DNA from: Candidatus Omnitrophota bacterium
Lineage (GTDB): Bacteria > Omnitrophota > Gorgyraeia > JAHJTE01
Assembly: GCA_018830005.1 (NCBI GenBank)
Contig: JAHJTE010000002.1
Coordinates: 7,053 to 71,052 of the forward strand
Direction of reading: 5' to 3'
Length of the DNA: 64,000 nt
This document shows, piece after piece, positions 9,394 to 62,515 of the stretch. Within the stretch, counting starts at the first letter, position 1; each line of letters begins with the position of its first letter. The notes under the pieces are model-generated. The model made no database searches. It was not told where the DNA came from and saw only the letters and a list, made by a program, of their open reading frames with translations. The translations under genes were made by a program, and so were the position numbers.

Positions 9394-9399
9394 CCCAAA

Positions 9400-11169: not shown

Positions 11170-11171
11170 GT

Positions 11172-14278: not shown

Positions 14279-14296
14279 TAAGTCCTTAAATTCTGC

Positions 14297-14330
14297 TTGA
14301 CATCTTGATAAAATAATCTAAAATAGATTT
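14297..14330 (+). promoter_or_regulatory. Promoter TTGACA-N16-TAAAAT preceding the riboswitch
   Basis: ttgacatcttgataaaataatctaaaat, seen directly. Confidence 0.4.
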
Positions 14331-14334
14331 ATCT

Positions 14335-14612
14335 TTGAAAATTAAATCCTACAGGTCCTTTCTCTAGGAAAGAGAAAGGGATAACAGGGAATCCTAAAAA
14401 GGGAACGGTCCCGCCGCTGTATAAGGTAACGAAATCCCAGAAAGCCACTTCTTAAAAGATCTTTTAGAGGGAAGGCAGGGAGAGTAGGTTATGAAGCCTT
14501 GAGTCAGAAAACCTGCCTGTAAAAATAAGCCTCGAGGAAGGGTGAAGTTAAACAGGGCGCAACCCCGAAGCTGACGATTAGAAGAATCGTAGATTTCGGG
14601 GTTTTTTATTTT
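14335..14612 (+). ncRNA. Cobalamin (AdoCbl) riboswitch with terminator expression platform
   Basis: Conserved core GGGAAcGGTCCCGCCGCTGTA, upstream GGGAATCC, and B12-box-like GAGTCAGAAAACCTGCC. Followed by hairpin ccccgaag...cttcgggg and T8 at 14564-14612. Confidence 0.65.
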
Positions 14613-14617
14613 TAAAA

Positions 14618-15223
14618 ATGCCTAAGAAGCTAATCTTAATTCGGCACGGTCAAACAGACTGGAATTATCAAAAAAGATATACTGGCTTTACGGATATAGG
14701 CCTAAATAAAAAAGGCAAGGCCCAGGCAAGAAGGCTTTCTAAGAAGTTAAGCAAAGTAGAAATTCATAACGTCTACGCAAGCAATATGAAAAGAACAGTT
14801 CAGTTTGCCAAGATAATCTTTAAAGATAAACCAGTAAAAGAATTTTCAGGGCTTCGCGAGATGAATTTTGGCATACTTGAAGGCTTGACATATCAGGAGA
14901 TTATGAAAAAGCACTCTCAAGCTTATACGAAATGGTTAGCCAACCCATCAAAACACACTATTCCAGAAGGTGAAAATTTAAATAATTTCGCAAAAAGAGT
15001 AAGAAAAACATTAAAGACGCTATTATCAGACAATAAGAATAAAACAATCGCAATATTTACTCACGCCGGCCCCATAAAAGTAATTTTATGCGATATTTTA
15101 AAAATAAGTTTAAGAGAGACTTGGCGTATAGAGCCAAAATCAGGCAGCATTAATATTATTGAATTTACTAGGGGCAAGGCTAGAATCCACTCTACATCCA
15201 ACACGGCATATTTAAATGGGTAA
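14618..15223 (+). CDS. cobC: Alpha-ribazole phosphatase (histidine phosphatase family)
   Basis: LILIRHGQTDWN phosphoglycerate-mutase-like RHG motif, in a cob operon context. Confidence 0.7.
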   Translation: MPKKLILIRHGQTDWNYQKRYTGFTDIGLNKKGKAQARRLSKKLSKVEIHNVYASNMKRTVQFAKIIFKDKPVKEFSGLREMNFGILEGLTYQEIMKKHSQAYTKWLANPSKHTIPEGENLNNFAKRVRKTLKTLLSDNKNKTIAIFTHAGPIKVILCDILKISLRETWRIEPKSGSINIIEFTRGKARIHSTSNTAYLNG

Positions 15224-15740
15224 GATTATATTTATTCTTGGCGGGGCAAGAAGCGGAAAAAGCGCCTATGCTGTTAAATTGGCTAAGGGGCTTGATAAAA
15301 AGGTCGCGTTTCTTGCTACTTGTCTACCTTTAGATAAAGAAATGAAAGAGCGAATCTCTCTCCATAAGAAAAAAAGGCCTGCGCATTGGCAAACATTTGA
15401 GCAACCTAAAGATTTGACCCCAACACTTAGAAAGATATGTCCTAAATTTAATGTTATCATTATTGACTGTCTTACAATTCTCATATCTAATCTTTTAGGG
15501 CAAGGGCTCAAATGTGCTGCTGTAGAAAATAGGATTGCTAAGATGTTGAAAATCCTTAAACAAAGTAAGCCTACATCAATCATTGTCTCTAACGAAGTCG
15601 GTTTAGGCATAGTCCCCGAGAACGCGCTAGGAAGAAGATTTAGGGACTTGGCTGGAAGAGTGAATCAGAACGTAGCAGCCAGAGCTAATGATGTTTTTTT
15701 TATGGTTTCAGGCCTGCCTTTAAAAGTCAGAAAGGGATAA
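15216..15740 (+). CDS. cobU: Adenosylcobinamide kinase / adenosylcobinamide-phosphate guanylyltransferase
   Basis: IIFILGGARSGKSAYA P-loop with CobU-like length and context. Confidence 0.75.
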   Translation: MGKIIFILGGARSGKSAYAVKLAKGLDKKVAFLATCLPLDKEMKERISLHKKKRPAHWQTFEQPKDLTPTLRKICPKFNVIIIDCLTILISNLLGQGLKCAAVENRIAKMLKILKQSKPTSIIVSNEVGLGIVPENALGRRFRDLAGRVNQNVAARANDVFFMVSGLPLKVRKG

Positions 15741-15741
15741 A

Positions 15742-16803
15742 ATGGACAAAATACAAGAAATTATTAAGAAAATAGAGGAACTTGATCAAGGTCTTATGAC
15801 TAAGGCCCAGGCTAGATTAGATAACCTCACTAAACCGCAAGGAAGTTTAGGCCGACTAGAAGAAATAGCAAAGCTTATTGTTGGTATTAGCAGGAATGAG
15901 AATCCGTCTATTGGAAAAAAAGTAATTTTTACCTTTGCCTCTGATCATGGAGTAACGCAAGAGAAGGTAAGCGCCTTTCCAAAAGAGGTTACAGCACAGA
16001 TGGTCTATAATTTTTTAAGTGGCGGTGCGGGAATTAACGTCTTAGCAGGTTGTGTTGGCGCAAAGGTTATAGTTGCAGATATGGGAATTGCACTTGATTT
16101 AAAGCCGCATCCAAAACTAATTATCAATAAAATCAATTATGGTACCAAAAATATGGCAGCCGGTCCAGCAATGACAAGAGAAGAGGCGGTAAGGTCTGTT
16201 GAAGCAGGTATTGAAATATTTCTAGATGTGTTTAGAGAAGGCGTAGATATTGTCGGCACAGGAGAAATGGGCATTGGGAATACAACAGCCTCAAGCGCTA
16301 TAGCTGCCTGCCTACTAGAAGAGCCGGTTGAAAAAATGACAGGTAGAGGAACAGGCATTGATGATAAGGCCTTCTCTAATAAGGTTGGAGTAATAGAAAA
16401 AGCGCTTAGTATAAATAAACCAAATCCTAAAGACCCTTTAGATGTATTATCTAAAGTAGGTGGATTTGAAATAGGAGGCCTTGCTGGGGTAATTCTAGGG
16501 GCGGCCTCAAAAAGAATTCCTGTAGTCATAGATGGTTTTATTTCCGGAGTAGCTGCCTTAATTGCTTACAGGTTAGAGCCAAAAGTAAAGAATTATATGA
16601 TTGCTGCCCACTGTTCTGTAGAAAAAGGACATAGAATAATCTTAGACTACCTGGGTCTCAAACCACTCCTAGATTTAGAATTACGCCTTGGAGAAGGAAC
16701 CGGGGCTGCTTTAGGAATGGGAATAATTGAGGCTAGTATTAAAATCTTTACTCAGATGGCTACGTTTCAAAAAGCATCTGTTTCCGAGAAAATCGAAGAA
16801 TGA
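15742..16803 (+). CDS. cobT: Nicotinate-nucleotide--dimethylbenzimidazole phosphoribosyltransferase
   Basis: LDNLTKPQGSLGRLEEIA, the typical CobT N-terminus, and GEMGIGNTT. Confidence 0.8.
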   Translation: MDKIQEIIKKIEELDQGLMTKAQARLDNLTKPQGSLGRLEEIAKLIVGISRNENPSIGKKVIFTFASDHGVTQEKVSAFPKEVTAQMVYNFLSGGAGINVLAGCVGAKVIVADMGIALDLKPHPKLIINKINYGTKNMAAGPAMTREEAVRSVEAGIEIFLDVFREGVDIVGTGEMGIGNTTASSAIAACLLEEPVEKMTGRGTGIDDKAFSNKVGVIEKALSINKPNPKDPLDVLSKVGGFEIGGLAGVILGAASKRIPVVIDGFISGVAALIAYRLEPKVKNYMIAAHCSVEKGHRIILDYLGLKPLLDLELRLGEGTGAALGMGIIEASIKIFTQMATFQKASVSEKIEE

Positions 16804-17543
16804 AAAGGTTTTTAATTGCCCTCCAGTTTTTAACTACCCTGCCCATAAAGATTAAATCAGAGATTAAAAATGAGGATTTCGGTAAATCTTTATTGTATTT
16901 TCCTATAGTAGGGATGTTAATCGGTCTTTTATTAAGTTTAATTCTTTCTCTTTTTAACTTCTTGCCCCATTTGGTGTTAGGCGTATTTATCTTATTAGCG
17001 TCCTTTATCATAACAGGTGGAATTCACTTAGATGGATTCGCTGATACTTGTGACGGATTTTATGGCTCCAAACCCAAAAAAAAGATACTCGAGATAATGC
17101 GAGATAGTCGAGTCGGAACAATGGGGGTAACAGGTTTAGTCTGTCTCCTGCTTTTAAAGTTTGCACTTATCGTAAATACTCCCAAAGACATGCTTTGGAA
17201 ATTATTGATTATGATGACTGCATTTGCAAGGTTATCTCAAGTTCTTGCCTGCTATACTTCTGGATATGCACGTCAGGAAGGTAAGGCAAAATACTTCATA
17301 GAATATGCCCTTAAGAAAGATGCTGTTATCGGGGCCTTATTTACCTTGAGCTTATTCTTATGGCTGATGCAGATAAAAGGTGTTGCCCTGTTTCTTATTC
17401 CTATACCTTTAATATTTTTATTCATAAATTATATTAAGAAAAGAATTAATGGAATGACCGGCGATACAATTGGTGCAGTGAGTGAACTGGCAGAAGTGTC
17501 TATTTTGCTAAGTTTTCTTGTTATAAACAGGCTTTATATATGA
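16800..17543 (+). CDS. cobS: Adenosylcobinamide-GDP ribazoletransferase (cobalamin synthase)
   Basis: LQFLTTLPI start and a polytopic membrane protein. Confidence 0.75.
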   Translation: MKRFLIALQFLTTLPIKIKSEIKNEDFGKSLLYFPIVGMLIGLLLSLILSLFNFLPHLVLGVFILLASFIITGGIHLDGFADTCDGFYGSKPKKKILEIMRDSRVGTMGVTGLVCLLLLKFALIVNTPKDMLWKLLIMMTAFARLSQVLACYTSGYARQEGKAKYFIEYALKKDAVIGALFTLSLFLWLMQIKGVALFLIPIPLIFLFINYIKKRINGMTGDTIGAVSELAEVSILLSFLVINRLYI

Positions 17544-18235
17544 AGAATTCCCTAGCCATATCTTCCTGGAGCGGAGGAAAGGATAGTTGCCTTGCTTGCT
17601 ATAAGGCGATGAGACTTGGCTACAAAATAAAATACCTCCTAAATTTTATCTCTAAAGAATATAAACGCTGCTGTTTTCATGGAATTGAAGCTAGGCTGCT
17701 AAAATTGCAGGCTGAACTTGTAGGAATTCCACTCGTTCAAAAAGAGGTTTCACCTGACATGAAAAAGTATGAACAAGAGTTTAAACAGGCTGTAAACGAG
17801 CTTAAAGATAAAGGCATTAGAGAAATGGTGTTTGGAGACATCTATTTGGATGAACACAAAATCTGGGTTGAACGCGTATGCAAGGAAATCGGAATTAAGC
17901 CTATAGAACCCCTCTGGAACCTTTCACCAGAAAAAATCGTAGAAGATTTTATTAATCTAGGATTTAAAGCAATCGTTGTTAGCTGTAAGGCTGATATGTT
18001 TGGAAAAGAGTTTATTGGAAGATATGTAGATAAAGATTTCCTAAAAGAACTTACAGCAAGAGGGATTTGTCCTTGCGGTGAGAACGGCGAATTTCATACC
18101 TTTATTGTTGATGGACCTATATTTAAAAAAAGAATAGAGATAACAGAAAGTCAAACAGTTCTTAAAAAAGGCTTTTGGGAGTATTGGTTTTTAGATATTA
18201 AGAAATATCAAGTTAAAGGAAAGGAGGAAAATTAA
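17540..18235 (+). CDS. PP-loop ATPase of the Dph6/MJ0570 (DUF71) family, translationally coupled to cobS
   Basis: SWSGGKDSCLACY PP-loop, ...GDIYLDEHKIWVERVCKEIGIKPIEPLW, CGENGEFHTFIVDGPIF all match the diphthine-ammonia ligase N-domain. 4-nt overlap with cobS. Confidence 0.7.
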   Translation: MKNSLAISSWSGGKDSCLACYKAMRLGYKIKYLLNFISKEYKRCCFHGIEARLLKLQAELVGIPLVQKEVSPDMKKYEQEFKQAVNELKDKGIREMVFGDIYLDEHKIWVERVCKEIGIKPIEPLWNLSPEKIVEDFINLGFKAIVVSCKADMFGKEFIGRYVDKDFLKELTARGICPCGENGEFHTFIVDGPIFKKRIEITESQTVLKKGFWEYWFLDIKKYQVKGKEEN

Positions 18236-18249
18236 TACAACTTGATAGA

Positions 18250-18415
18250 AGGTATAGACAAAAACACTTTATATAGGCAAAGGAAGTAGGGGTGAAATTC
18301 CCCTTGCTGTCCCGCAACGGTAATACCCAGGCTTGATAAAAGCCTAGGTGAGCCCGGACGATTGCCTCGCTATTTCTGCTTGCAATAAGCAGGAAAGTAT
18401 CCTCGCGGAAGGAGA
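18250..18415 (+). ncRNA. Second cobalamin riboswitch, upstream of btuB
   Basis: GGGGTGAAATTCCCC and GCTGTCCCGCAACGGTAA core motifs. B12-box only approximate (GAGCCCGGACGATTGCC). Confidence 0.5.
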
Positions 18416-18421
18416 AAAACA

Positions 18422-20284
18422 ATGAATAAATTTAAATGCTTGTTTACTTTGACTTTATTATGTATTTTCTGTCTAATTAATACTAAGGTAGATGCAAATG
18501 AGTCTGGTACATCTCATTACACAATTGATTTAGAAAAGATTGTAATTACGCCTTCTAGGCTAAAGCAGGAATATAGGCATTCCACCCAAAATATAAGTAT
18601 TATCACTAAAGAAGACATTGAGTCTGAAGGCAAGCTTGAGATCTCAGAGGTCCTGGATTTATTGCCTTCAGTAGATATATTAGAGTATGGTTCTACTGGC
18701 TCTACGCGAGCTATCCATACCCGAGGTGCCTCATCCAGCCAAGTCCTCACTCTTGTTGACGGAAGACCAGTCAATACCCCGCGCGATGGTCTCACAGATT
18801 TTAATCAAATTCCTCTTTCAAACATTGAAAGGATTGAAGTTTTGCGCGGCCCTTTAAGTAGTATATATGGCGCGAATGCGGTAGGCGGGGTTATCAATAT
18901 AATTACTAAAAGCGGAAAAGAAAAAAAACAGACTAAAAGTTCAAGCAAATTCGGTTCTTTCAATACAAAATCTGTTTCTTTAACCCACTCAAATAAAATA
19001 GATAAGTTCGATTATTTTATATCCAGCGACTACCTAGCCTCGCATGGCCATAGAGATAATGCTGACTATTTAAGCAACAATGTAAATACAAAATTAGGGA
19101 TTGAGTTAGATGCTGACAATCATATTAATACTTCTTTTGGATACTACAATTCAGAAGTAGGAACCCCGGGCTTAATTACTAATCAAGACCTGGATGATAG
19201 ACAGGAAACATTTAAAAAATATATCGATATAACTTATGATGGGAAAATGTTGGAAGGTCAAGATATAGTTTTAAAGGTATATCAGAATTTTGATAGATTG
19301 GAATTTATTGAAGCCTTTGATCCGCTTGATAAAGATACACAACAGACCAAGGTTTATGGGACAGATTTTCAGATTTCTCAAGTTCTATTCGATATTTATC
19401 GATCCGCAATTGGATTAAGCTTTCAAGAGCACAGACTTAACAGTTCAAACAGCGGCAAACATAGCTATAGCCTGAAAGGGACTTATTTTGAATCAGAGAC
19501 AGACATTTTTAATAAAGGGTCCTTGAAGTTCGGAGCACGCTGGGATGACTATTCAAATTTTGGAGATAGGATTAGCCCTAGTGCTAGTTTTAATCTTTGG
19601 TTATTTGATAAAATAAAGCTGCATGCCTTGGCAGCAAAATCTTTCCGTGCGCCTACTTTTAATGATCTTTACTGGCCGCAAGAAGATTGGGGTATTTGGG
19701 GCGGGGTAGAAGGGAATTCTAATCTTGGTCCTGAAAAAGCAATTTCATATGAAGCAGGCATAGGCGGGTATTCCTTAGGAAGACTTAAGACTGATATTAC
19801 ATATTTTATGACAGATTTCGATGATTTAATAGAATGGACAGTTGATGACTCTTGGTGGTGGAGACCTGAAAATGTTAGCTCTGCATCTATAAGAGGAGCT
19901 GAGCTTGAGACAGAATTCGTTACAAATGACCATTTTAAAGCTAATTTTAACTACACTTACCTAAGAGCTAAAAATAAAGATACAAAGAACTGGTTAATAT
20001 ATCGGCCTAGACATCTGTATAAGTTAAAATTAACCTACTCACCTGTCCCTAGATACGAATTGGGCTTAAGCGGCATATACAAAACAAAAAGATTCAGCAA
20101 TGCAAGCAATACGACCTTTCTCAAGGCCTACTTTATTATGAATATGAACCTTTCCTACAAAATAAATGATTTTGCGCAAATTTTGTTTGAGACTAAAAAT
20201 ATCTTTGATAGAACGTATCAAGAGGAGAGGGACTATTCTATGCCAGGAAGGGCATTTTATAGCGGGTTTAAATTAACATTTTAA
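18422..20284 (+). CDS. btuB: TonB-dependent outer-membrane receptor, BtuB-like
   Basis: Signal peptide, TonB-box-like EKIVITPSR, plug and barrel domains, C-terminal ...GFKLTF. Confidence 0.75.
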   Translation: MNKFKCLFTLTLLCIFCLINTKVDANESGTSHYTIDLEKIVITPSRLKQEYRHSTQNISIITKEDIESEGKLEISEVLDLLPSVDILEYGSTGSTRAIHTRGASSSQVLTLVDGRPVNTPRDGLTDFNQIPLSNIERIEVLRGPLSSIYGANAVGGVINIITKSGKEKKQTKSSSKFGSFNTKSVSLTHSNKIDKFDYFISSDYLASHGHRDNADYLSNNVNTKLGIELDADNHINTSFGYYNSEVGTPGLITNQDLDDRQETFKKYIDITYDGKMLEGQDIVLKVYQNFDRLEFIEAFDPLDKDTQQTKVYGTDFQISQVLFDIYRSAIGLSFQEHRLNSSNSGKHSYSLKGTYFESETDIFNKGSLKFGARWDDYSNFGDRISPSASFNLWLFDKIKLHALAAKSFRAPTFNDLYWPQEDWGIWGGVEGNSNLGPEKAISYEAGIGGYSLGRLKTDITYFMTDFDDLIEWTVDDSWWWRPENVSSASIRGAELETEFVTNDHFKANFNYTYLRAKNKDTKNWLIYRPRHLYKLKLTYSPVPRYELGLSGIYKTKRFSNASNTTFLKAYFIMNMNLSYKINDFAQILFETKNIFDRTYQEERDYSMPGRAFYSGFKLTF

Positions 20285-51882: not shown

Positions 51883-52251
51883 ATGCCTAAGAAATATCAA
51901 GGCATTGAAGCCAGGCGCTATCCTAGAATATCCTGGAATTTCATAGTAAAATTCAGGCTCAAAACTTCACAAGACTCCAAGTGGTTTATTTCCAATATCA
52001 CAAATATAAGCCAAGGCGGCTGCTTTTTTTATAGTCCTGTCCCTTATGAAATAGGCCAAACCTTGGAGGTTGAAATACAGTTTCCCAGGCTAACGCAACC
52101 CATGCACTTTCTAGGAGAAGTAAGGCGAAAGGTAGATGAGGAAAACGCACTAAATTCAAGATACGGTATAGCGGTTATGTTTTTAGAGATGGAGGAAGAA
52201 AAGAGGAAGGAATTTCTCGAATCGATAGACTTTTTTCTGAAGAAACGCTAG
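51883..52251 (+). CDS. PilZ domain protein
   Basis: RRYPRI and NISQGGCFF motifs. Confidence 0.6.
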   Translation: MPKKYQGIEARRYPRISWNFIVKFRLKTSQDSKWFISNITNISQGGCFFYSPVPYEIGQTLEVEIQFPRLTQPMHFLGEVRRKVDEENALNSRYGIAVMFLEMEEEKRKEFLESIDFFLKKR

Positions 52252-53645: not shown

Positions 53646-53759
53646 AACCCCCATTAACATAACCTCTTATTTTACAGTCAATTACGTCGAATAATAGAAA
53701 AAAACTAATTTTTGTGGTATACTTATAGTGTTATATTGTAGCTAATACGATAAAGGCAA

Positions 53760-53915
53760 ACCATTTGAAAGAGTGGGGCGGGCCGAAAGCCCGGTCCTGA
53801 AAAGGACCGCAAAACTTATAGAGCCTAAATCCTAAAAACTTAGGATATGGCAGTCAGTTGCCGAACATAGTGGATAAAAAATGCCTATTCTTTCAAAGGA
53901 ATAGGCATTTTTTTT
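53760..53915 (+). ncRNA. Candidate small RNA: three hairpins plus intrinsic terminator
   Basis: gggccgaaagccc, ggtcctgaaaaggacc, atcctaaaaacttaggat hairpins, then gcctattctttcaaaggaataggc + T8. Confidence 0.25.
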
Positions 53916-53929
53916 GGGGGGTGGCAAAG

Positions 53930-54304
53930 ATGAACGAGAAGATTCTGATAGTAGACGATGAGCCTGACGTATGCGAAGCAATCGGTCTATATTTTAGCAA
54001 AAGAAACTATAAAATTATTACTGCCAATAACGGTCAAGAGGCACTCTCTAAAGCCAAGAATGAGAAGCCGGCATTAATATTGCTAGATATAGTTATGCCT
54101 AAAATGGGTGGAATCGAGTGTCTGCGCAAAATAAGAAGGTTTAATAAGAGGGTACCTATCATTATAGTTACTTGCGTAGATAAATTAAAAACAGCCTTGA
54201 AGGCCATGAAATTAGGCGCTACTGATTATATAACAAAACCTCTTGGTTTTGATGCCTTAGAGACAACTATTTCTACATATCTCTTTTTGAAGAGCGTTAA
54301 TTGA
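53930..54304 (+). CDS. Single-domain CheY-like response regulator receiver
   Basis: KILIVDDEPDV...LILLDIVMPKMGGIE...IIIVT...K. Start moved to MNEKIL because the ORF-track start overlaps the terminator hairpin. Confidence 0.8.
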   Translation: MNEKILIVDDEPDVCEAIGLYFSKRNYKIITANNGQEALSKAKNEKPALILLDIVMPKMGGIECLRKIRRFNKRVPIIIVTCVDKLKTALKAMKLGATDYITKPLGFDALETTISTYLFLKSVN

Positions 54305-55705: not shown

Positions 55706-55898
55706 TCAGGTTCCTTCAACTGATTGCGTCAATCTTTGAGGAAATCAGCAAGCTCTTATGTCTCTAAAATCGAATTCGTGCCGCAGGTAGCCAATTAAGC
55801 ACAAAATACAATTTTCATAACTATAATAATAGCAACAAGATATAGAAGGTAGTCAAAAACTTACAAATTAAGGGGCATTTTAAAATGGAGGGAGCAAA

Positions 55899-57359
55899 AT
55901 GAGTGGAATTTTTGGCGTTACTTCTAAAAATGATTGTACAGAATCTTTATTTTACGGAACAGACTATCACTCACATTTAGGCACGGAATATGGAGGCATG
56001 GCCGTGTTAGGTGAAGATTTCCAACGCCAAATACATAATATAGCGCAGACTCAATTCAAATCAAAATTCTATGAAGACTACAGACGCATGAAAGGAAATA
56101 AAGGCATAGGTGTTATCAGTGATTCTGATGAACAGCCCATATATCTAAACTCTAAATTCGGACCTTTTTGCATAGTTACCGCAGGATTAATAGAAAACAA
56201 AGAACAATTAGCAGAAGACTTATTGAAAAAAGGCATATCATTCAGCGAAGTAGGCAAGGGTTTAGTTAATTCCACAGAACTTGTGGCAAAATTAATAAAC
56301 CAGGGCGATAGTATTATAGATGGCATAGATAAGATGTTTGATTCAATAGAAGGTTCTTGCACGCTTCTTTTGCTAAACAAAGATGGGCTTTATGCAGCTA
56401 GGGACAGACTCGGCTATACTCCAATAATCCTTGGCAAGGGCGATGAGGCCTGGGCTGTAACCTCAGAAACTAGCGCATTCGCTAATACAGGATTCACAAT
56501 TGAAAAATACCTCTTGCCAGGAGAAATCATATTACTTACTGAAAATGGCCTAACTCAACGAAAGCCCGGTAAAACTGAGTGTCAAATCTGCACATTCTTG
56601 TGGATATATACGGGTTTTCCAGCATCAACTTATGAAGGCATAAATGTTGAAACTGTGCGTGAAAGATGCGGCAGATTCTTAGCAAAACGAGATAAGGATA
56701 TAAAGGTCGATGTTGTTTCAGGCGTACCTGACTCTGGAGTGGCGCATGCACTTGGCTATGCAATGGAATCCGGCAAACCATTCCGCCGCCCACTTGTAAA
56801 ATATACTCCTGGCTATGGCAGAAGTTATACCCCGTCTTCACAAGAAACACGCGATTTGGTTGCTAAAATGAAGCTTCTACCGATTAGGGAGATCATAGAG
56901 GGTAATAAAATAGTAGTGTGCGAAGACTCAATAGTAAGAGGGACTCAATTGAAGAATTTTACCGTAAAAAAACTCTGGGATTGTTGCGCAAAAGAGGTTC
57001 ACGTACGGCCAGCTTGTCCGCCTCTTATGTTCCCGTGTAAATTTTGTCTTTCTACGCGAAGCATTCATGAGCTTGCTGCGCGTCGTGCAATTAAGGCGCT
57101 TGAAGGCCATGACCTTGAAGACGTATCTGAATACATAGATCATAACACGGATAAATATAAGAAGATGATAGACTGGATAACCAGAGACTTAACATTAACC
57201 ACGCTAAGATACCAAACAATAGACGATATGATAAAGGCAGTGGGTCTACCCAAGGAAAAACTCTGTCTTTATTGCTGGACAGGTGAATCACCTAAGCAGA
57301 ACGCAAAATCTGATATAGAAAACAAGAGCAAAAAGACCACATCTTTCTCTGATATTTAA
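55899..57359 (+). CDS. Amidophosphoribosyltransferase (PurF) paralog with degenerate glutaminase site
   Basis: MSGIFG (Cys1 to Ser), HNGN to TAGL, but PRTase motifs VVSGVPDSG and VVCEDSIVRGTQ plus four Cys at B. subtilis-type 4Fe-4S ligand positions. Confidence 0.7.
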   Translation: MSGIFGVTSKNDCTESLFYGTDYHSHLGTEYGGMAVLGEDFQRQIHNIAQTQFKSKFYEDYRRMKGNKGIGVISDSDEQPIYLNSKFGPFCIVTAGLIENKEQLAEDLLKKGISFSEVGKGLVNSTELVAKLINQGDSIIDGIDKMFDSIEGSCTLLLLNKDGLYAARDRLGYTPIILGKGDEAWAVTSETSAFANTGFTIEKYLLPGEIILLTENGLTQRKPGKTECQICTFLWIYTGFPASTYEGINVETVRERCGRFLAKRDKDIKVDVVSGVPDSGVAHALGYAMESGKPFRRPLVKYTPGYGRSYTPSSQETRDLVAKMKLLPIREIIEGNKIVVCEDSIVRGTQLKNFTVKKLWDCCAKEVHVRPACPPLMFPCKFCLSTRSIHELAARRAIKALEGHDLEDVSEYIDHNTDKYKKMIDWITRDLTLTTLRYQTIDDMIKAVGLPKEKLCLYCWTGESPKQNAKSDIENKSKKTTSFSDI

Positions 57360-57550
57360 GGATTAATCGTAAGTTTTACCTCATTTCCATTATTCTTTTA
57401 ATTACTTGACAAACTAAAGATTTTGTGTATAATGATACCCGTAGTAAATAAGGGAAGGGAAGTTGAATGCCGTAAGGCAAAACACTCGCCTTGCGGTTTT
57501 TTTCTGCCATTATTTACTAAAAATTCATGAAAAAGGAGGTGTAGTAAGTA

Positions 57551-57751
57551 ATGGCAAAAGGCAAAGTAAAATGGTTCAGTAATCAAAAAGGTTATGGTTT
57601 TATTACTCCTGAAAACGGCAATGACGTATTTGTGCATCACTCAGCAATTCAAGGTGATGGCTATAAGTCTTTAGAGGAAAATCAAGAAGTTGAATTCGAG
57701 ATTGAACAAGGTCCTAAGGGCGAACAGGCTAAAAACGTAACAAAAGTATAA
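57551..57751 (+). CDS. cspA: Cold-shock protein, CspA family (paralog)
   Basis: [34 protein letters not shown]. Promoter ttgaca-16-tataat at 57407-57434. Confidence 0.9.
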
Positions 57752-57768
57752 GCTGAATTGGAAAAATC

Positions 57769-57808
57769 TAAGGCTCGAGACTTTAAATAGGCTTGAGCCT
57801 TATTTTTA
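57769..57808 (+). terminator. Rho-independent terminator
   Basis: aaggctcgag...cttgagcctt + T-tract. Confidence 0.6.
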
Positions 57809-57821
57809 AAGGAGATATTTC

Positions 57822-58034
57822 ATGCATAAAGGAAAAATAAAAAGACTGGTTCGCGATAAGGGTTTTGGTTTCATCAGCGTACTTGATGGAAGGGATATAT
57901 TTTTCCACCAGAATAGCGTATTAGATACTAACTTTGAAGATCTTAAAGAGGGTCAAGAAGTTGAGTGCGAAGTTGAAAAAAGTCCAAAGGGTCCACGCGC
58001 ACTTAATGTACGTATTGTCGCAGAAGCAGCTTGA
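57822..58034 (+). CDS. Cold-shock domain protein (divergent third paralog)
   Basis: KGKIKRLVRDKGFGFISVLDGRDIFFH. Confidence 0.8.
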   Translation: MHKGKIKRLVRDKGFGFISVLDGRDIFFHQNSVLDTNFEDLKEGQEVECEVEKSPKGPRALNVRIVAEAA

Positions 58035-58639: not shown

Positions 58640-59446
58640 GTGGACAATCTTTTCTTAAAGCCCTTAGAGATATCAAAGGCACTAAGTAGAATTGGCGAAA
58701 GAAAAGCAAAAGAAACAATATTTGAACTCTTCATCTTTGGGATTCTTGCTGGTATCTACATTTCCTTTGGCGCTCATGCTGCAATTGCTATTTTAAGCGG
58801 AGGGACCCTTGATCCAGGTCTGGCAAAATTCCTTGCCGGAAGCGTCTTTAGTGTAGGACTGATGTTGGTACTCATTCCCGGTTCAGAACTCTTTACCGGG
58901 AACATCCTCATGACCATAGGCTTTATCTATCGAAAATATTCCTTTGCAAAGGTCTTTCGTAATTTGTTTGTAGTCTATTTCAGCAATCTATTGGGCGCTT
59001 TAATCATCGCCTGGTTTGTCTATAAGAGCGGTCTGCTTATGCAGGGCAATGCCTTAACCTCAATGGGCGCTGTTGCAGTTAACATCTGCGAAACAAAATT
59101 AGGTTTGAGTTTTACAGAGGCACTCTGCAGAGGAATCTTATGCAATATGCTAGTTTGTCTTGCAGTAATAATGTGTATCGCTGCAAGGTCAATAGCAGGT
59201 AAGATTTTTGGCATATATTTCCCAATTATGGTCTTTGTTGCCTCTGGCTATGAACACAGTGTAGCTAATATGTATTTCCTGCCAATAGGCCTGATGTTAA
59301 AAGGAGAGTTCTTTTCTAACTTTTCTTCAATGTTTACTAACCTCATACCCGTAACCATTGGAAACATTATAGGAGGTTTGTTAATTGTCCTGTTACATCC
59401 AAAGGCTGAGGAAAAGATCGTTAGTACTCTGATGGGCAAAAAATAA
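58640..59446 (+). CDS. Formate/nitrite transporter (FNT) family channel
   Basis: ...GAHAAIA...LAGSVFSVGLMLVLIPGSELFTGN. Confidence 0.75.
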   Translation: MDNLFLKPLEISKALSRIGERKAKETIFELFIFGILAGIYISFGAHAAIAILSGGTLDPGLAKFLAGSVFSVGLMLVLIPGSELFTGNILMTIGFIYRKYSFAKVFRNLFVVYFSNLLGALIIAWFVYKSGLLMQGNALTSMGAVAVNICETKLGLSFTEALCRGILCNMLVCLAVIMCIAARSIAGKIFGIYFPIMVFVASGYEHSVANMYFLPIGLMLKGEFFSNFSSMFTNLIPVTIGNIIGGLLIVLLHPKAEEKIVSTLMGKK

Positions 59447-59513
59447 ACTCAACAAATAACCAGTTATATAGATTGCAGTAAATCCTGCCAAACAGCCTAT
59501 TTGGGAGATTTAT

Positions 59514-59948
59514 ATGGGTGATAAGAACCAAAAGAGCTTTATATGTACGGATTGTTTCCGGCTCAAAAGATGCAAAGAACCGCTCGCCTCATGGCTGTTT
59601 TTTAGTATTGCAATTATTGCGGTTATTTCGCTCAGGGCTGTAAATATCTTTATAGATTTTAATCCTCTAATTGCCAAGACACTCTGGTATGTTGGCGTAA
59701 CAGGATTTTTGGTATTCTTTATATATAAATTCCACCACCACAACATCTTACACAGAGAGCTTAATAAAACAAATCTTGTGGAGAAACTACTCAGTAAAGA
59801 GAAGCTTTCTGAGCATGATTATGAAGTCCTAGGAACCATCCTTTGTAGCTTAAGTTCAAAAAAGGACAAGATAAATTATTTCCTTATATTCTTTTTTTCA
59901 GCGGTGGCTCTAATAATAGCAATATATGCTGATTTCTTTAAAAGGTAG
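59514..59948 (+). CDS. Hypothetical membrane protein
   Basis: N-terminal CTDC...C motif, then TM helices. Confidence 0.35.
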   Translation: MGDKNQKSFICTDCFRLKRCKEPLASWLFFSIAIIAVISLRAVNIFIDFNPLIAKTLWYVGVTGFLVFFIYKFHHHNILHRELNKTNLVEKLLSKEKLSEHDYEVLGTILCSLSSKKDKINYFLIFFFSAVALIIAIYADFFKR

Positions 59949-59965
59949 AACAAAGGAGGAGTAAA

Positions 59966-60544
59966 ATGGCTAAATCAATCAAAGGAACGAAAACCGAGAA
60001 TAATTTATTGGCAGCCTTTGCAGGTGAATCGCAGGCAAGGAATAGATATACATATTTTGCCAGCGCTGCCAGAAAAGTAGGTTATGAGCAAATTGCCAAT
60101 ATATTTACCGAAACAGCTGAAAACGAAAAAGAACACGCCAAGGTATTCTTTAAGTATCTTGAAGGCGGCGATCTAGCAATTACTGCATCTTACCCAGCAG
60201 GAGCAATAAAAGAAACAAAAATCAATTTAGAAGCTGCTGCTGATGGTGAGAAACTAGAATGGACAACCCTTTATGCAAACTTTGCAAAGATTGCCAAAGA
60301 TGAAGGTTTTACTGAAGTAGCTCAATCCTTTGAACAGATTGCCAAGGTAGAGAGATTTCATGAAACAAGATACAGAAAGCTAATCGCCAACCTAGACAAA
60401 GACAGCGTATTTAAGAAGGCTAAACCAGTGAAATGGCATTGTATTAACTGCGGTTACGTCTTCGAAGGTGAAGAAGCACCCCAGGAATGTCCTGCCTGCA
60501 AGCATCCACAGGCGTTCTATGAAGTTCTGGCTGAGAATTACTAA
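59966..60544 (+). CDS. rbr: Rubrerythrin
   Basis: Ferritin-like ENNLLAAFAGESQARNRY and C-terminal rubredoxin-like WHCINCGY...ECPACKHP. Confidence 0.85.
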   Translation: MAKSIKGTKTENNLLAAFAGESQARNRYTYFASAARKVGYEQIANIFTETAENEKEHAKVFFKYLEGGDLAITASYPAGAIKETKINLEAAADGEKLEWTTLYANFAKIAKDEGFTEVAQSFEQIAKVERFHETRYRKLIANLDKDSVFKKAKPVKWHCINCGYVFEGEEAPQECPACKHPQAFYEVLAENY

Positions 60545-60549
60545 TAACT

Positions 60550-61773
60550 ATGAAATACAAAAGACCTGAGTTAATATCACCAGCAGGTGACTGGTGTAGT
60601 CTAAATACAGCAATAGAAGCAGGGGCTGATGCTGTGTATTTCGGCATAAAGAACCTAAATATGCGGCATTGGGCCTGTAATTTTGATATGCTTGAAATAA
60701 AAAAGGTAATCTCTGTTTTGCATGATAATGGAAAAAAAGGCTATCTTGCGTTAAACACCATTATGTATAACAATGACATCAAAAAGATAAAGAAGATCTT
60801 AAGTATAGCCAAAAAAGCAGAGGTTGATGCGGTTATACTTTGGGATATGGCAGTGCTTAAACTTGCAAAAGAGCTAGGCCTGCGCATACATCTATCAACA
60901 CAGGCAAGCGTTGCGAACTTTACAGCGCTTAAATTTTATCATTCATTAGGCGTTAAAAGGATTGTTCTTGCAAGGGAATGTGGATTTCTTCAGATAAAGG
61001 AGATAATTAACAGTGTAGGAAAAGAAAACCTAGATTGTGAAATAGAGGTCTTTGCCCATGGGGCCTTATGCGTCAGTATATCCGGGAGATGTTTTCTTTC
61101 GCATAGTTCATTCTCAAAATCAGCAAACAGAGGTATGTGCCTTCAGCCATGCAGGCGTAAGTTTTTAATAAAAGACATAGAAGAAAAGAACAATGAATAT
61201 ATCTTAGGCCAGGATTATGTGCTAAGCGCGAAGGATCTGTGCACAATAGAATTTATTGATAAATTAATACAGTCTGGTATAAGCGCCTTTAAAATAGAAG
61301 GCAGGATGCGCTCTGCAGAATATGTAGGAGAGGTTACTTCTAGTTACAGACAGGCAATGGATTCTTTTTTTAATGGCGGTCTTACCCCCCGTAAGAAAAA
61401 ATCCCTCAAAAAGAGACTTTCAGCAACCTTTAACAGAGGCTTTAGCCATGGTTTTTTCTTCTCCCAGCCTAATGATACGGGCAGTGAAAAAGGCACAAGT
61501 GGCTATGAAAAGGTTTTTGTGGGCAATGTAGTTAAGTTCTATAATAAAATAAGCGTTGCAGAAGTCTCAGTAATAAACCAAGGTTTAAGAAAAGGTCAGA
61601 ATATATTAATCTATGGAAAAAATACTCCAGCCAGGGTTGTAGCGGTGGCTGAAATGCACCAAAACCACAATCAAATAGATTATGCAAAGAAGGGAGAGCG
61701 AATCGGCATAAAATTACCGTTTAGGGCTAGACGTAATGACAAGGTGTTTTTGTATGAGTTGAAAAATGAATGA
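60550..61773 (+). CDS. Peptidase U32 family protein
   Basis: KRPELISPAGDWCSLNTAIEAGADAVYFG. Confidence 0.75.
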   Translation: MKYKRPELISPAGDWCSLNTAIEAGADAVYFGIKNLNMRHWACNFDMLEIKKVISVLHDNGKKGYLALNTIMYNNDIKKIKKILSIAKKAEVDAVILWDMAVLKLAKELGLRIHLSTQASVANFTALKFYHSLGVKRIVLARECGFLQIKEIINSVGKENLDCEIEVFAHGALCVSISGRCFLSHSSFSKSANRGMCLQPCRRKFLIKDIEEKNNEYILGQDYVLSAKDLCTIEFIDKLIQSGISAFKIEGRMRSAEYVGEVTSSYRQAMDSFFNGGLTPRKKKSLKKRLSATFNRGFSHGFFFSQPNDTGSEKGTSGYEKVFVGNVVKFYNKISVAEVSVINQGLRKGQNILIYGKNTPARVVAVAEMHQNHNQIDYAKKGERIGIKLPFRARRNDKVFLYELKNE

Positions 61774-62515
61774 GATCATACATTTAATTATAGTGTTTTC
61801 TGCAGGGGCTATTGCAGGCTTTATTAATGTTATGGCTGGTGGTGGCTCAGTGTTGACTTTGGGCGTTATGATGCTAATTGGCCTAGATGCACCCATAGCA
61901 AATGGAACAAATAGAATTGGTATACTGGCAGGAGCTATTTCAGGGGCGTCTGCATACAATTCTGAAAAACTTAGCAATATAAAAGAAAGTTTCCTTCTTG
62001 GAATTTGGACTCTGCCGGGCGCAATAATCGGCTCTATTTTTGCTATTAACATTAGTAATCTCCTTTTTCAAAGAATTCTTGCCGGTGTTATGATATTTGT
62101 TGTCATAACCCTGTTTAGACCAATAGCTAATGGACAGAATTCCAAAGAGTTTTCCAAAGGCCGAAATAAGCTTATTTATCCGACAATGTTTCTTATAGGC
62201 TTATATGGTGGTTTTATTCAAGCTGGCGTAGGATTCCTGATTATGTTTTCCTTGCGACATATACTGGGTTTAAGCCTTACAAAAATAAATATTCATAAGG
62301 TTTGCATAATTTTACTGTACACAATCCCTGTTATCTTTATATTTGGGCTTACTAAAAATATTAATTGGATTTATGCAGTTTGCCTAGGTTTAGGCAGCGC
62401 TTTAGGCGCCTGGCTGTCTGTAAAAGTATCAGTCAAGAAGGGTGAGGGAGTTATAAAAATTGTTTTGTGTGTAGCAATTTTACTAATGGCGGCGAAATTT
62501 CTGTTAACTTTTTGA
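61766..62515 (+). CDS. TauE/SafE-family (DUF81) anion exporter
   Basis: AGFINVMAGGGSVLTLG...ANGTNRI. Confidence 0.7.
   Translation: MNEIIHLIIVFSAGAIAGFINVMAGGGSVLTLGVMMLIGLDAPIANGTNRIGILAGAISGASAYNSEKLSNIKESFLLGIWTLPGAIIGSIFAINISNLLFQRILAGVMIFVVITLFRPIANGQNSKEFSKGRNKLIYPTMFLIGLYGGFIQAGVGFLIMFSLRHILGLSLTKINIHKVCIILLYTIPVIFIFGLTKNINWIYAVCLGLGSALGAWLSVKVSVKKGEGVIKIVLCVAILLMAAKFLLTF

What the first reader, a model, noticed from the sequence alone, without database searches (positions are those of the whole stretch)
55899..57359. PurF paralog with glutaminase residues replaced but PRTase and Fe-S ligands intact
By-eye alignment to E. coli and B. subtilis PurF shows Cys1 to Ser (MSGIFG), Arg26 to Leu, Arg73 to Ser, and Asn101-Gly102 (HNGN) to TAGL. 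That leaves no glutamine-hydrolysis machinery. The PRPP loop (GVPDSG), the DSIVRGT motif and Cys residues at all four B. subtilis-type 4Fe-4S positions, including C-terminal CxxC (LCLYCWTG), are retained. It is either an NH3-dependent PRA synthase or a PRTase recruited to new chemistry. Ser-for-Cys at position 1 is very unusual for class II amidotransferases.
Basis: partly seen in the sequence, partly recalled or inferred. Interest (0 to 1): 0.6.

Follow-up and report, generated by a model that had tools for sequence, protein, structure and literature searches.

The report
Cysteine-less PurF paralog (PurF′ type)
This gene encodes a widespread but biochemically untested copy of the first purine-synthesis enzyme that has lost every residue needed to use glutamine yet keeps its sugar-phosphate site and iron-sulfur cluster, so it most likely makes the same product directly from ammonia.

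Summary
ORF 55899-57359 (+, 486 aa) is a PurF homolog. Cys1 is Ser, Arg26 is Leu, the Arg73-Tyr74 loop is lost through an 8-residue deletion, Asn101 is Ala, and Asp127 is Ser. The PRPP site, the flexible loop and all four B. subtilis-type 4Fe-4S cysteines are intact. No upstream start can restore a cysteine.

It is not a one-off. It belongs to a large clade of loop-deleted PurF-like proteins in anaerobic bacteria and archaea, where position 1 is Ser, Thr, Gly or Ala. All tested members score below the curated purF cut-off (182-218 bits against 350). Canonical PurFs encoded beside them score 516-521.

In relatives the gene lies inside pur operons and often coexists with a canonical purF. It also recurs next to DUF1846/PyrJ (an ammonium-dependent CTP synthase), carB without carA, and a synthetase-only guaA.

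Cys-less "PurF′" paralogs were already noted in Crenarchaeota in 2011, with the same untested ammonia hypothesis. My best reading is an NH3-dependent phosphoribosylamine synthase isozyme (about 0.5). Rivals are a partner or regulator of PurF, or a different nitrogen donor. It is a new member of a known, uncharacterised kind, of moderate interest.

The parts
55899..57359 (+). CDS, 486 aa: Cys-less PurF paralog (PurF′-type, Ser subclade)
   Evidence: ORF. Below-cut-off match to TIGR01134 purF (196 bits against 350). Pfam GATase_7. Best PDB sequence and fold matches are B. subtilis and E. coli PurF. 100% identical to a protein of a Candidatus Omnitrophica MAG (P0001).
55881..55894 (+). In-frame stop TAA (55881-55883) followed by Shine-Dalgarno GGAGGGAG (55887-55894). 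Together they fix the start at ATG 55899.
   Evidence: Sequence read directly. Rules out an upstream start that would supply a Cys.
55902..55904 (+). Ser2, at the position of the Cys1 nucleophile. It becomes N-terminal if Met is removed.
   Evidence: Ser in 120 of 120 closest homologs. Ser/Thr/Gly/Ala in the wider clade.
55962..55985 (+). Clade-specific motif D22-Y23-H24-S25-H26-L27-G28-T29, replacing canonical (L)xxLQHRGQ. Leu27 stands where Arg26 is.
   Evidence: Alignments. D22, Y23, H24, H26, G28 and T29 are >=97% conserved among 68 Ser-type sequences. Y23 occurs in 53 of 69 loop-less representatives, against Ser/Ala in canonical PurF. AF2 confidence is low for residues 25-28.
56118..56123 (+). 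Site of the 8-residue deletion that removes the Arg73-Tyr74-x-Thr76 glutamine loop (query G71-V-I-S74-D75 then S76-D-E-Q-P)
   Evidence: MAFFT and HMMER. The gap is present in all 69 loop-less representatives and absent in all 9 canonical sequences.
56178..56189 (+). T94-A95-G96-L97, in place of the oxyanion-hole motif H-N101-G102-N
   Evidence: Gly is kept; the Asn position is variable (A/D/S/V/N/T) across the clade.
56271..56273 (+). Ser125, at the position of Asp127 (binds the alpha-amino group of glutamine in PurF)
   Evidence: The position is variable across the clade.
56589..56591 (+). Cys231: 4Fe-4S ligand 1 (B. subtilis Cys236)
   Evidence: alignment. Cys in 64 of 69 loop-less representatives. 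AF2 confidence is low for residues 230-243, as expected without the cofactor.
56721..56738 (+). G275-V-P-D-S-G280: pyrophosphate-binding loop of the PRTase domain
   Evidence: S279 and G280 are kept in 66 of 69 representatives.
56799..56876 (+). K301-L326: PRTase flexible loop (E. coli residues 326-350), with Lys301 and Arg308 kept. The channel-lining Phe334-Ile335 are here Tyr310-Thr311.
   Evidence: 16 of these 26 residues are >=97% conserved in the Ser-type family.
56919..56945 (+). C341-E-D-S-I-V-R-G-T349: PRPP ribose-phosphate binding motif (E. coli D366-D367-SIVRGT)
   Evidence: D343 is kept in 68 of 69 representatives.
57036..57038 (+). Cys380: 4Fe-4S ligand 2 (B. subtilis Cys382)
   Evidence: Cys in 68 of 69 representatives.
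57264..57275 (+). C456-L-Y-C459: 4Fe-4S ligands 3 and 4 (B. subtilis Cys437, Cys440)
   Evidence: second aligned stretch. Cys in 64 and 63 of 69 representatives.
57297..57356 (+). Lys/Ser-rich C-terminal tail (residues 467-486), not conserved
   Evidence: Variable in alignments A1 and A2. pLDDT about 32.

Best explanation
The gene encodes an oxygen-sensitive [4Fe-4S] PurF paralog that still carries out the PRTase half-reaction: PRPP + NH3 -> 5-phosphoribosylamine + PPi. It has permanently lost the glutaminase half-reaction, so it would work as an ammonia-dependent first enzyme of de novo purine (and thiamine) synthesis. It would act alongside, or in some lineages instead of, the glutamine-dependent PurF in anaerobes from ammonium-rich habitats.

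Shown here:
- Loss of every glutamine-site residue.
- Retention of the PRPP site, the flexible loop and the cluster ligands.
- Strong purifying selection on both domains.
- Placement of relatives in pur operons.
- Coexistence with canonical purF.
- Linkage to an ammonium-dependent CTP synthase gene.

Inferred:
- That the product is PRA and that free NH3/NH4+ is the donor.
- That deleting the Arg73-Tyr74 gate loop and making the channel residues polar (Phe334-Ile335 -> Tyr-Thr) open the former glutamine pocket to solvent ammonia.
- That the new conserved D-Y-H-x-H patch helps capture or deprotonate NH4+.
- That the N domain is otherwise kept for folding, oligomerisation and closure of the PRTase site.
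For: 1. The glutaminase machinery is gone and the PRTase and Fe-S residues are kept.

2. In E. coli PurF, replacing Cys1 with Ser or Ala abolishes glutamine-dependent activity but leaves NH3-dependent activity. This is Mei & Zalkin 1989 as summarised in PMC3261824, so the chemistry is precedented in this very fold.

3. Relatives sit in pur operons.
- L053 Omnitrophota: purL-purQ-[Ser type]-purF-purM...purD-purE.
- L028: [Ser type]-purM-purD.
- L058 Methanosarcinales: [Ser type]-purD.
- L056 Hadarchaeota: purN-purD-[Ser type]-purE-purB-folD-...-purM-purL-purQ, with no other PurF homolog within 10 kb.
- Gly-type relatives: Dysosmobacter purE-[PurF′]-purC-purF-purM-purN...purD-purL, and Muribaculum intestinale purL-[PurF′].

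4. Recurrent neighbours are other enzymes that can run on ammonia.
- DUF1846 in 8 of 77 loci, directly adjacent in 6, in at least four different arrangements. A DUF1846 protein, S. pneumoniae PyrJ, was shown to be an ammonium-only CTP synthase (bioRxiv 10.1101/2024.09.24.614635).
- carB with no carA within 10 kb, in 6 loci.
- A guaA that has only the synthetase part, in 4 loci.

5. Both domains are under strong constraint. Mean identity to 67 homologs from about 10 phyla is 66% in the N domain and 79% in the PRTase domain. This argues against a decaying pseudogene.

6. All named hosts are anaerobic lineages. This fits an Fe-S enzyme in ammonium-rich settings (the habitat link is inference).
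Against: - No biochemical or genetic data exist for any member, as far as the searchable literature shows.
- In the window itself the gene stands alone, between small membrane-protein genes and cold-shock genes, with no purine genes in the 64 kb.
- About three quarters of the 77 loci show no nucleotide-synthesis neighbour.
- If the N domain were merely inert, so many invariant polar residues (D22, Y23, H24, K54, K56, S74) would not be expected. Some function beyond letting ammonia in may exist.
- The same clusters can contain purQ, a working glutaminase subunit, so these organisms are not generally avoiding glutamine.
- Tight tandem linkage to canonical purF (1-10 bp apart in L053 and L054) fits a hetero-oligomer equally well.
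- Whether carA and the guaA glutaminase subunit are really absent from those genomes could not be checked.
Confidence: 0.5

Rival explanations
1. It is a partner or regulator of canonical PurF. PurF′ would form mixed oligomers with PurF, or hand PRA to PurD. It would tune activity, feedback inhibition or oxygen sensitivity, with little or no independent catalysis.
For: - It coexists with a canonical, above-cut-off PurF in six related loci and in Dysosmobacter.
- In L053 and L054 the two genes are 1-10 bp apart, as is common for subunits of one complex.
- Crenarchaeal purF and purF′ are also adjacent.
- PurF is an oligomer with inter-subunit nucleotide sites (established knowledge).
- The N domain is strongly conserved without a glutaminase site.
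Against: - Every PRTase catalytic and PRPP-binding residue, and the flexible loop, are as conserved as or more conserved than in canonical PurF. A non-catalytic subunit would not need this.
- In most loci, including the window, the gene is not near purF.
- In the L056 pur cluster it is the only PurF homolog.
Confidence: 0.17
2. It makes PRA (or another ribosylamine) from a different nitrogen donor. The remodelled Ntn domain, with N-terminal Ser/Thr as nucleophile or the D-Y-H-x-H patch as a new site, would release ammonia from some other amide or carbamoyl compound (for example asparagine, carbamate or carbamoyl phosphate) and pass it to PRPP.
For: - Ser and Thr are bona fide nucleophiles in other Ntn hydrolases (established knowledge).
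- Ser is kept in 120 of 120 close homologs.
- Many invariant polar residues in the N domain suggest a ligand site.
- carB, the carbamoyl-phosphate synthase large subunit, is directly adjacent in several loci, overlapping the gene's last 34 bases in L003.
Against: - Sister subclades with the same motifs have Gly or Ala at position 1, which cannot be nucleophiles.
- The oxyanion-hole Asn position and the Asp127 position vary freely across the clade. This is not what a conserved hydrolytic site looks like.
- No candidate donor is pointed to by any recurrent neighbour other than carB.
Confidence: 0.12
3. It is a PRTase recruited to a reaction outside purine synthesis, transferring phosphoribosyl from PRPP to some other nucleophile.
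For: - It fails the curated purF equivalog cut-off (196 against 350 bits).
- The gene stands alone in the window and in most loci.
- The channel residues are changed.
Against: - The only pathway genes that recur next to it are purine and pyrimidine synthesis genes, in Omnitrophota, Hadarchaeota, Methanosarcinales, Clostridia and Bacteroidales.
- No other pathway recurs among 1240 neighbouring ORFs that were clustered.
Confidence: 0.08
4. It is an ordinary glutamine-dependent PurF that uses Ser instead of Cys as nucleophile.
For: - The overall PurF fold and domain order are kept.
- Ser would be N-terminal after Met removal.
Against: - Arg73, Tyr74, Thr76, Asn101, Asp127 and Arg26, the glutamine-binding and oxyanion residues, are all missing.
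- E. coli C1S has no detectable glutamine-dependent activity (PMC3261824).
- Gly and Ala occupy position 1 in sister subclades.
Confidence: 0.03

Closest known systems
PurF′ of Crenarchaeota (Brown et al. 2011, Biol Direct 6:63, PMC3261824)
   Same: - A PurF homolog without the N-terminal Cys.
- It coexists with and lies near a canonical purF and other pur genes.
- It was proposed, but never tested, to be an ammonia-dependent PRPP aminotransferase.
   Different: - The described PurF′ proteins have mostly Ala or Val at position 1 and come from aerobic or thermophilic Crenarchaeota.
- The window protein has Ser, four Fe-S cysteines and an 8-residue glutamine-loop deletion, and comes from Omnitrophota.
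- Whether the two groups form one clade was not tested, because no crenarchaeal PurF′ sequence could be fetched.
- The 2011 paper did not report the bacterial distribution or the PyrJ/carB/guaA linkage.
Canonical glutamine PRPP amidotransferase PurF, B. subtilis type (TIGR01134; PDB 1gph, 1ao0)
   Same: - Two-domain Ntn + type I PRTase fold.
- PRPP motifs and flexible loop.
- The four [4Fe-4S] cysteines.
- Position in pur operons.
   Different: - No Cys1, Arg26, Arg73-Tyr74 loop, Asn101 or Asp127.
- No propeptide.
- About 26-27% identity.
- 196 bits against the 350-bit equivalog cut-off, while co-resident true PurFs score 516-521.
E. coli PurF C1S / C1A mutants (Mei & Zalkin 1989, cited in PMC3261824)
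   Same: A Ser or Ala at position 1 gives an enzyme that has lost glutamine use but still makes PRA from NH3. This is a laboratory precedent for the proposed activity.
   Different: These are engineered single substitutions in an otherwise intact glutamine site. Here the whole site has been remodelled and then conserved by natural selection.
PyrJ (DUF1846), ammonium-dependent CTP synthase of S. pneumoniae (bioRxiv 10.1101/2024.09.24.614635)
   Same: A glutamine-independent, ammonia-using alternative to a classical amidotransferase of nucleotide synthesis, coexisting with the classical enzyme (PyrG). Its homologs are the most frequent direct neighbours of the Ser-type gene.
   Different: It has an unrelated fold and catalyses a different reaction. 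The link is by gene neighbourhood and by analogy only.
Class II amidotransferase homologs that lost Cys1 (beta-lactam synthetase and carbapenam synthetase, relatives of AsnB)
   Same: An Ntn domain is retained after loss of the nucleophile, while the synthetase domain stays catalytic (recalled knowledge, not tested here).
   Different: They belong to the AsnB branch, not the PurF branch, and their synthetase domains were recruited to new chemistry in secondary metabolism.

Membership tests
PurF, glutamine PRPP amidotransferase (EC 2.4.2.14; NCBIfam TIGR01134 equivalog) | Score at or above the curated equivalog cut-off (350 bits) | tested here: not met
   196.1 bits. Ser-type and Gly-type relatives score 182-218 bits. 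Canonical PurFs encoded next to them score 516-521 bits.
PurF, glutamine PRPP amidotransferase (EC 2.4.2.14; NCBIfam TIGR01134 equivalog) | N-terminal Cys nucleophile (Cys1) exposed by Met removal or propeptide cleavage | tested here: not met
   Ser2. An in-frame stop six codons upstream excludes a longer N-terminus.
PurF, glutamine PRPP amidotransferase (EC 2.4.2.14; NCBIfam TIGR01134 equivalog) | Glutamine-binding and oxyanion residues Arg26, Arg73, Tyr74, Asn101-Gly102, Asp127 | tested here: not met
   Leu27, an 8-residue deletion, Ala95-Gly96 and Ser125.
PurF, glutamine PRPP amidotransferase (EC 2.4.2.14; NCBIfam TIGR01134 equivalog) | Type I PRTase site: PPi loop, acidic pair + SIVRGT, flexible-loop Lys/Arg | tested here: met
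   GVPDSG, E342-D343-SIVRGT, K301 and R308 are all conserved.
PurF, glutamine PRPP amidotransferase (EC 2.4.2.14; NCBIfam TIGR01134 equivalog) | Catalyses PRA formation from PRPP | not testable with these tools
   Only genomic context speaks to it: pur-operon placement of relatives.
B. subtilis-type [4Fe-4S] PurF subclass | Four Cys ligands at positions equivalent to Cys236, 382, 437 and 440 | tested here: met
   Cys231, 380, 456 and 459 align to them. They are kept in 63-68 of 69 clade representatives. Actual cluster binding was not tested.
PurF′ (Cys-less PurF paralog sensu Brown et al. 2011) | PurF homolog lacking the N-terminal Cys | tested here: met
PurF′ (Cys-less PurF paralog sensu Brown et al. 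2011) | Coexists with a canonical PurF and clusters with purine genes | tested here: inconclusive
   Met in relatives: L053, L054, L058, L060, L063, L070 and L090. For the window's own genome only 64 kb could be read, and it holds no purF or pur genes.
PurF′ (Cys-less PurF paralog sensu Brown et al. 2011) | Falls in the same phylogenetic cluster as the crenarchaeal PurF′ proteins | not tested
   No crenarchaeal PurF′ sequence was available. The NJ tree of 50%-identity representatives only shows that all loop-deleted proteins group apart from canonical PurF.
Ntn hydrolase with Ser/Thr nucleophile | Invariant N-terminal nucleophile with a conserved oxyanion hole | tested here: not met
   Position 1 is Gly (21), Ser (15), Ala (10), Thr (6) or Cys (6) among the 69 loop-less representatives. 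The Asn101 position is variable.

The most novel reading that the evidence does not exclude
The loop-deleted, Cys-less PurF clade would be a dedicated ammonium-using phosphoribosylamine synthase. In it the former glutamine pocket has been rebuilt into an NH4+ capture and deprotonation site (the D-Y-H-x-H patch, with the gate loop deleted) that feeds the old ammonia tunnel.

Together with PyrJ (DUF1846), CarB acting without CarA, and a synthetase-only GuaA, it would form a glutamine-independent 'ammonia mode' of nucleotide synthesis. Many anaerobic bacteria and archaea would run this in parallel with the classical amidotransferases.
Probability: 0.2. Interest if true: 0.75.

Novelty: new member of a known kind. 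Interest (0 to 1): 0.55.

Why it matters
PurF catalyses the committed step of purine synthesis, and the same product feeds thiamine synthesis. It is a textbook example of ammonia channelling.

- **Nitrogen economy.** A second, glutamine-blind version is conserved at 60-85% identity across Omnitrophota, Planctomycetota, Elusimicrobia, Deltaproteobacteria, Thermoplasmatota and Hadarchaeota. Relatives occur in gut Clostridia and Bacteroidales. If active on ammonia, many anaerobes can start purine synthesis without spending glutamine, and so without the ATP that glutamine synthetase uses.
- **Metabolic reconstruction.** It would affect reconstruction from metagenomes, where both genes are currently named 'amidophosphoribosyltransferase'. 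It would also affect the interpretation of purF essentiality screens and models of nitrogen economy in ammonium-rich anoxic habitats.
- **A testable hypothesis.** The link to PyrJ found here turns the 15-year-old PurF′ question into a specific one, and two cultured hosts are available for genetics (Muribaculum intestinale, Dysosmobacter).

Tried and rejected
- **Alternative start restoring Cys:** rejected. There is an in-frame TAA six codons upstream and a strong Shine-Dalgarno sequence at the annotated start.
- **Riboswitch or other known RNA in the 190-bp upstream spacer:** none found, at gathering or at permissive thresholds. No consensus promoter was found for the gene either.
- **Recent foreign insertion:** not supported. 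GC is 0.40 in the gene against 0.36-0.39 around it.
- **A conserved operon partner that would name the function:** clustering 1240 ORFs from 77 loci gave no universal neighbour. Only partial associations appeared (pyrJ, carB, guaA, pur genes).
- **'These organisms avoid glutamine amidotransferases altogether':** rejected. purQ and canonical purF sit in the same clusters.
- **Sole PurF of its genome:** rejected for six relatives. Left open for the Hadarchaeota locus L056 and for the window's own genome.
- **Literature searches for a characterised Cys-less PurF:** these returned only the 2011 archaeal survey. They covered PurF2, PurF-like, ammonia-dependent, Bacteroides and Omnitrophota.
- **Cluster look-ups to name hosts of the Ala/Val-type representatives:** these gave no crenarchaeal names, so the link to crenarchaeal PurF′ stays untested.
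- **AlphaFold model:** only moderate (pLDDT 74.9, pTM 0.54). Coordinates could not be inspected, so no pocket or tunnel analysis was possible. The fold search merely confirmed PurF as nearest structure.
Full report
**1. What is in the sequence**

The window contains one long ORF at 55899..57359 on the + strand, 486 aa.
- The start is unambiguous. GGAGGGAG lies 5-12 nt upstream of the ATG.
- The reading frame is closed by TAA six codons upstream.

The protein is 100% identical to a database entry from a Candidatus Omnitrophica metagenome-assembled genome.

**2. The residue-level claims hold**

HMMER against solved structures finds B. subtilis PurF best (1gph/1ao0, E about 1e-49), followed by the plant, human-type and E. 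coli enzymes. I fetched E. coli K-12 purF and aligned it with the query and family members.

| Canonical PurF | Window protein |
|---|---|
| Cys1 | Ser2 |
| Arg26 | Leu27 |
| Arg73-Tyr74-Pro-Thr76 glutamine loop | removed by an 8-residue deletion |
| His-Asn101-Gly102-Asn | Thr-Ala-Gly-Leu |
| Asp127 | Ser125 |

The PRTase half is intact:
- the GVPDSG pyrophosphate loop;
- E342-D343-SIVRGT;
- flexible-loop Lys301 and Arg308.

Counting along the HMMER alignment, Cys231, Cys380, Cys456 and Cys459 face B. subtilis Cys236, 382, 437 and 440, the [4Fe-4S] ligands (coordinates verified).

An AlphaFold2 model has mean pLDDT 74.9. The N domain is confident. Low confidence falls on the Fe-S segments, the flexible loop and residues 25-28. 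Its best structural neighbours in the PDB are B. subtilis, Arabidopsis and E. coli PurF (E 1e-31 to 1e-25).

Against the curated purF equivalog model the protein scores 196 bits, well under the 350-bit cut-off.

**3. It is a family, not an accident**

- All 120 closest homologs (74-86% identical) start M-S-G-[ILVFM]-[FC]-G.
- A scan of one genome per species found 77 loci. They come from Omnitrophota, Planctomycetota, Elusimicrobia, Krumholzibacteriota, Deltaproteobacteria including Syntrophorhabdus, Thermoplasmatota, Hadarchaeota, Methanosarcinales and Altiarchaeota. Identity to the query is still 57-79%.
- Across 67 of these, mean identity to the query is 66% in the N domain, 79% in the PRTase domain and 66% in the C-terminal part. 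150 positions are at least 97% conserved.
- The N domain is therefore under strong selection even though its glutaminase site is gone.

An exhaustive HMMER search of 50%-identity cluster representatives shows a much wider clade.
- Nearly all of the best 150 representatives lack the Arg73-Tyr74 loop.
- Among 69 full-length loop-less representatives, position 1 is Gly (21), Ser (15), Ala (10), Thr (6) or Cys (6).
- The Asn101 and Asp127 positions vary.
- The PRPP residues and the four cysteines are nearly invariant.
- Clade-specific gains include Tyr23, Phe53, a basic residue at position 54, Ser74, and in many members Asp22-Tyr-His24-Ser-His26.
- A neighbour-joining tree puts all loop-less proteins apart from canonical PurF. 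A few Cys1/Arg26-retaining members lie near the base and the Ser type sits as a terminal subclade. This is a small sample and a simple method, so it is indicative only.

Because Gly and Ala occupy position 1 in sister groups, the Ser is unlikely to be a catalytic nucleophile.

**4. Genomic context**

In the window the gene stands alone.
- Upstream lie a c-di-GMP riboswitch, a response-regulator gene and three small membrane or lipoprotein genes.
- Downstream lie two cold-shock genes with their own perfect sigma-70 promoter.
- No known RNA element precedes the gene.
- No purine gene lies anywhere in the 64 kb.

Relatives are more informative. I called ORFs in all loci and clustered them. I then searched the loci with E. 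coli K-12 purine, carAB and guaA proteins.

Pur-operon placement:

| Locus | Host | Gene order |
|---|---|---|
| L053 | Omnitrophota | purL-purQ-[Ser type]-purF-purM...purD-purE |
| L054 | Omnitrophota | [Ser type]-purF-purM |
| L028 | Omnitrophota | [Ser type]-purM-purD |
| L058 | Methanosarcinales | [Ser type]-purD (Pfam GARS) |
| L056 | Hadarchaeota | purN-purD-[Ser type]-purE-purB-folD-5-formyl-THF cyclo-ligase-purM-purL-purQ-guaA |
| L090 | Dysosmobacter (Gly type) | purE-[PurF′]-purC-purF-purM-purN-IMP cyclohydrolase-AICARFT-purD-purL |
| L093 | Muribaculum intestinale (Gly type) | purL-[PurF′] |

In L056 the Ser type is the only PurF homolog within 10 kb.

Coexistence with a true PurF:
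- Six loci (L053, L054, L058, L060, L063, L070) carry a second PurF-like gene with Cys1, Arg26, the RYxT loop, Asn-Gly and Asp127.
- These neighbours score 516-521 bits on the purF model. The Ser-type and Gly-type proteins score 182-218.
- The window protein's family is therefore a genuine paralog of PurF, tied to de novo purine synthesis in at least five phyla.

**5. An unexpected recurrent neighbour**

The most frequent direct neighbour is a DUF1846 protein (Pfam E 4e-172).
- It is present in 8 of 77 loci and directly adjacent in 6.
- It occurs upstream, downstream, on the opposite strand, or separated by carB.
- Roughly one such locus would be expected by chance, if the gene is single-copy in a 2-Mb genome.

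A 2024 preprint shows that a DUF1846 protein, S. pneumoniae Spd_0310 (PyrJ), is synthetically lethal with pyrG. When purified, it converts UTP to CTP with ammonia but not with glutamine (10.1101/2024.09.24.614635).

Two further neighbours recur:
- carB with no carA within 10 kb, in 6 loci;
- a guaA that carries only the ATP-pyrophosphatase/synthetase part, in 4 loci.

Examples are L070 (carB-purF-DUF1846-[Ser type]), L078 (purC-DUF1846-carB-[Ser type]) and L003 ([Ser type]-carB-guaA synthetase).

All three neighbours are synthetase components that can, or do, work with free ammonia. I could not check whether carA or the guaA glutaminase subunit lie elsewhere in those genomes. purQ and canonical purF occur in the same clusters, so this is a parallel route at most, not a glutamine-free lifestyle.

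**6. What is already known**

Brown et al. (2011) surveyed archaeal purine genes.
- They described a second PurF-like cluster in every crenarchaeon, named PurF′. It lacks the N-terminal cysteine (often Ala or Val), lies close to purF and other pur genes, and was proposed to be an ammonia-dependent PRPP aminotransferase, pending experiments.
- They also noted a Ser-for-Cys copy in Methanocorpusculum labreanum.
- They recalled that E. coli PurF with Cys1 changed to Ser or Ala loses glutamine-dependent activity but keeps NH3-dependent activity (PMC3261824).

I found no later characterisation in the searchable literature. The kind of protein is therefore known and its favoured hypothesis is old.

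What this analysis adds:
- the size and bacterial breadth of the clade;
- the loop deletion as its hallmark;
- Fe-S retention;
- the clean separation on the curated model;
- the linkage to PyrJ, carB and guaA-synthetase.

**7. Mechanism**

The best-supported reading (about 0.5) is an ammonia-dependent PRA synthase. PRPP binds the conserved PRTase site, the conserved flexible loop closes, and NH3 attacks C1.

The following steps are inference from the alignment:
- The 8-residue deletion removes Tyr74, the gate between the glutamine site and the channel in E. coli PurF.
- The channel-lining Phe334-Ile335 are Tyr310-Thr311 here. Tyr (34) or Phe (29) and Thr (27), Ile (12) or Met (11) occupy these positions across the 69 representatives.
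- The former pocket is therefore probably open to solvent.
- The conserved Asp-Tyr-His-x-His patch at its mouth could recruit and deprotonate NH4+.

Rivals:
- a hetero-oligomeric partner or regulator of PurF (0.17), favoured by the 1-10 bp tandem spacing in L053 and L054 but disfavoured by the fully conserved catalytic residues;
- a different nitrogen donor processed by the remodelled N domain (0.12);
- a non-purine PRTase (0.08);
- a Ser-nucleophile glutamine enzyme (0.03).

**8. Verdict**

It is not singular, however, and the idea is not new.

I class it as a new member of a known but uncharacterised kind. Interest is moderate (0.55). A specialist would not be astonished by a Cys-less PurF. 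What makes it worth testing is the breadth of the clade, its strong conservation and its linkage to the newly described ammonium-dependent CTP synthase, which together make a long-open question directly testable in cultured gut anaerobes.

Noticed in passing
Related loci L015, L018, L021, L024, L046, L070, L072, L078: DUF1846 genes lie next to the Cys-less PurF gene in several different arrangements. DUF1846 is the family of PyrJ, the ammonium-dependent CTP synthase of S. pneumoniae. This hints at a linked set of ammonia-using nucleotide-synthesis enzymes.
   Followed up: partly
Related loci L003, L024, L064, L070, L072, L078 (carB); L003, L009, L030, L056 (guaA): Full-length carB genes have no carA within 10 kb, and L070 has two carB-like genes in tandem. 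The guaA genes encode only the synthetase half, without the glutaminase domain. Whether the glutaminase partners exist elsewhere in these genomes is unknown.
   Followed up: partly
Representatives P0168, P0188, P0197, P0241, P0251, P0261: A basal set of loop-deleted PurF-like proteins still has Cys1 and Arg26 but lacks the Arg73-Tyr74 loop and Asn101. They may be intermediates in the loss of glutaminase, or enzymes with a different amide substrate.
   Followed up: no
window 14336-20284: A cobalamin riboswitch (92.9 bits) precedes a lower-ligand and nucleotide-loop operon: a CobC-like phosphatase, CobU, CobT and CobS. These are followed by a Diphthami_syn_2-family ATP-binding protein and a TonB-dependent receptor.
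   Followed up: partly
window 53745-54304: A c-di-GMP-I riboswitch (55.7 bits) ends inside, or just before, the start of a stand-alone response-regulator receiver gene (53858-54304). A PilZ-domain gene lies nearby at 51883-52251.
   Followed up: no
window 57406-58034: A perfect sigma-70 consensus (TTGACA, 16 nt, TATAAT) at 57406-57433 precedes two tandem cold-shock-domain genes (57551-57751 and 57822-58034). A CSD gene also lies close to the PurF′ cluster in L003, at 15790-16002, just downstream of the guaA-synthetase gene.
   Followed up: no
window 58640-62515: Anaerobe-type genes lie downstream: a formate/nitrite transporter, rubrerythrin, a U32 peptidase and a TauE/SafE exporter. They are consistent with an oxygen-sensitive host for an Fe-S PurF paralog.
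   Followed up: no
L002 / L007 (Planctomycetota CP070728.1), around 8466-14467: Here the Ser-type gene is flanked by a B12-binding radical SAM gene, a 472-aa protein with no Pfam match and a MiaB-like radical SAM gene. B12-binding radical SAM genes also occur near the gene in L003 and L072.
   Followed up: no
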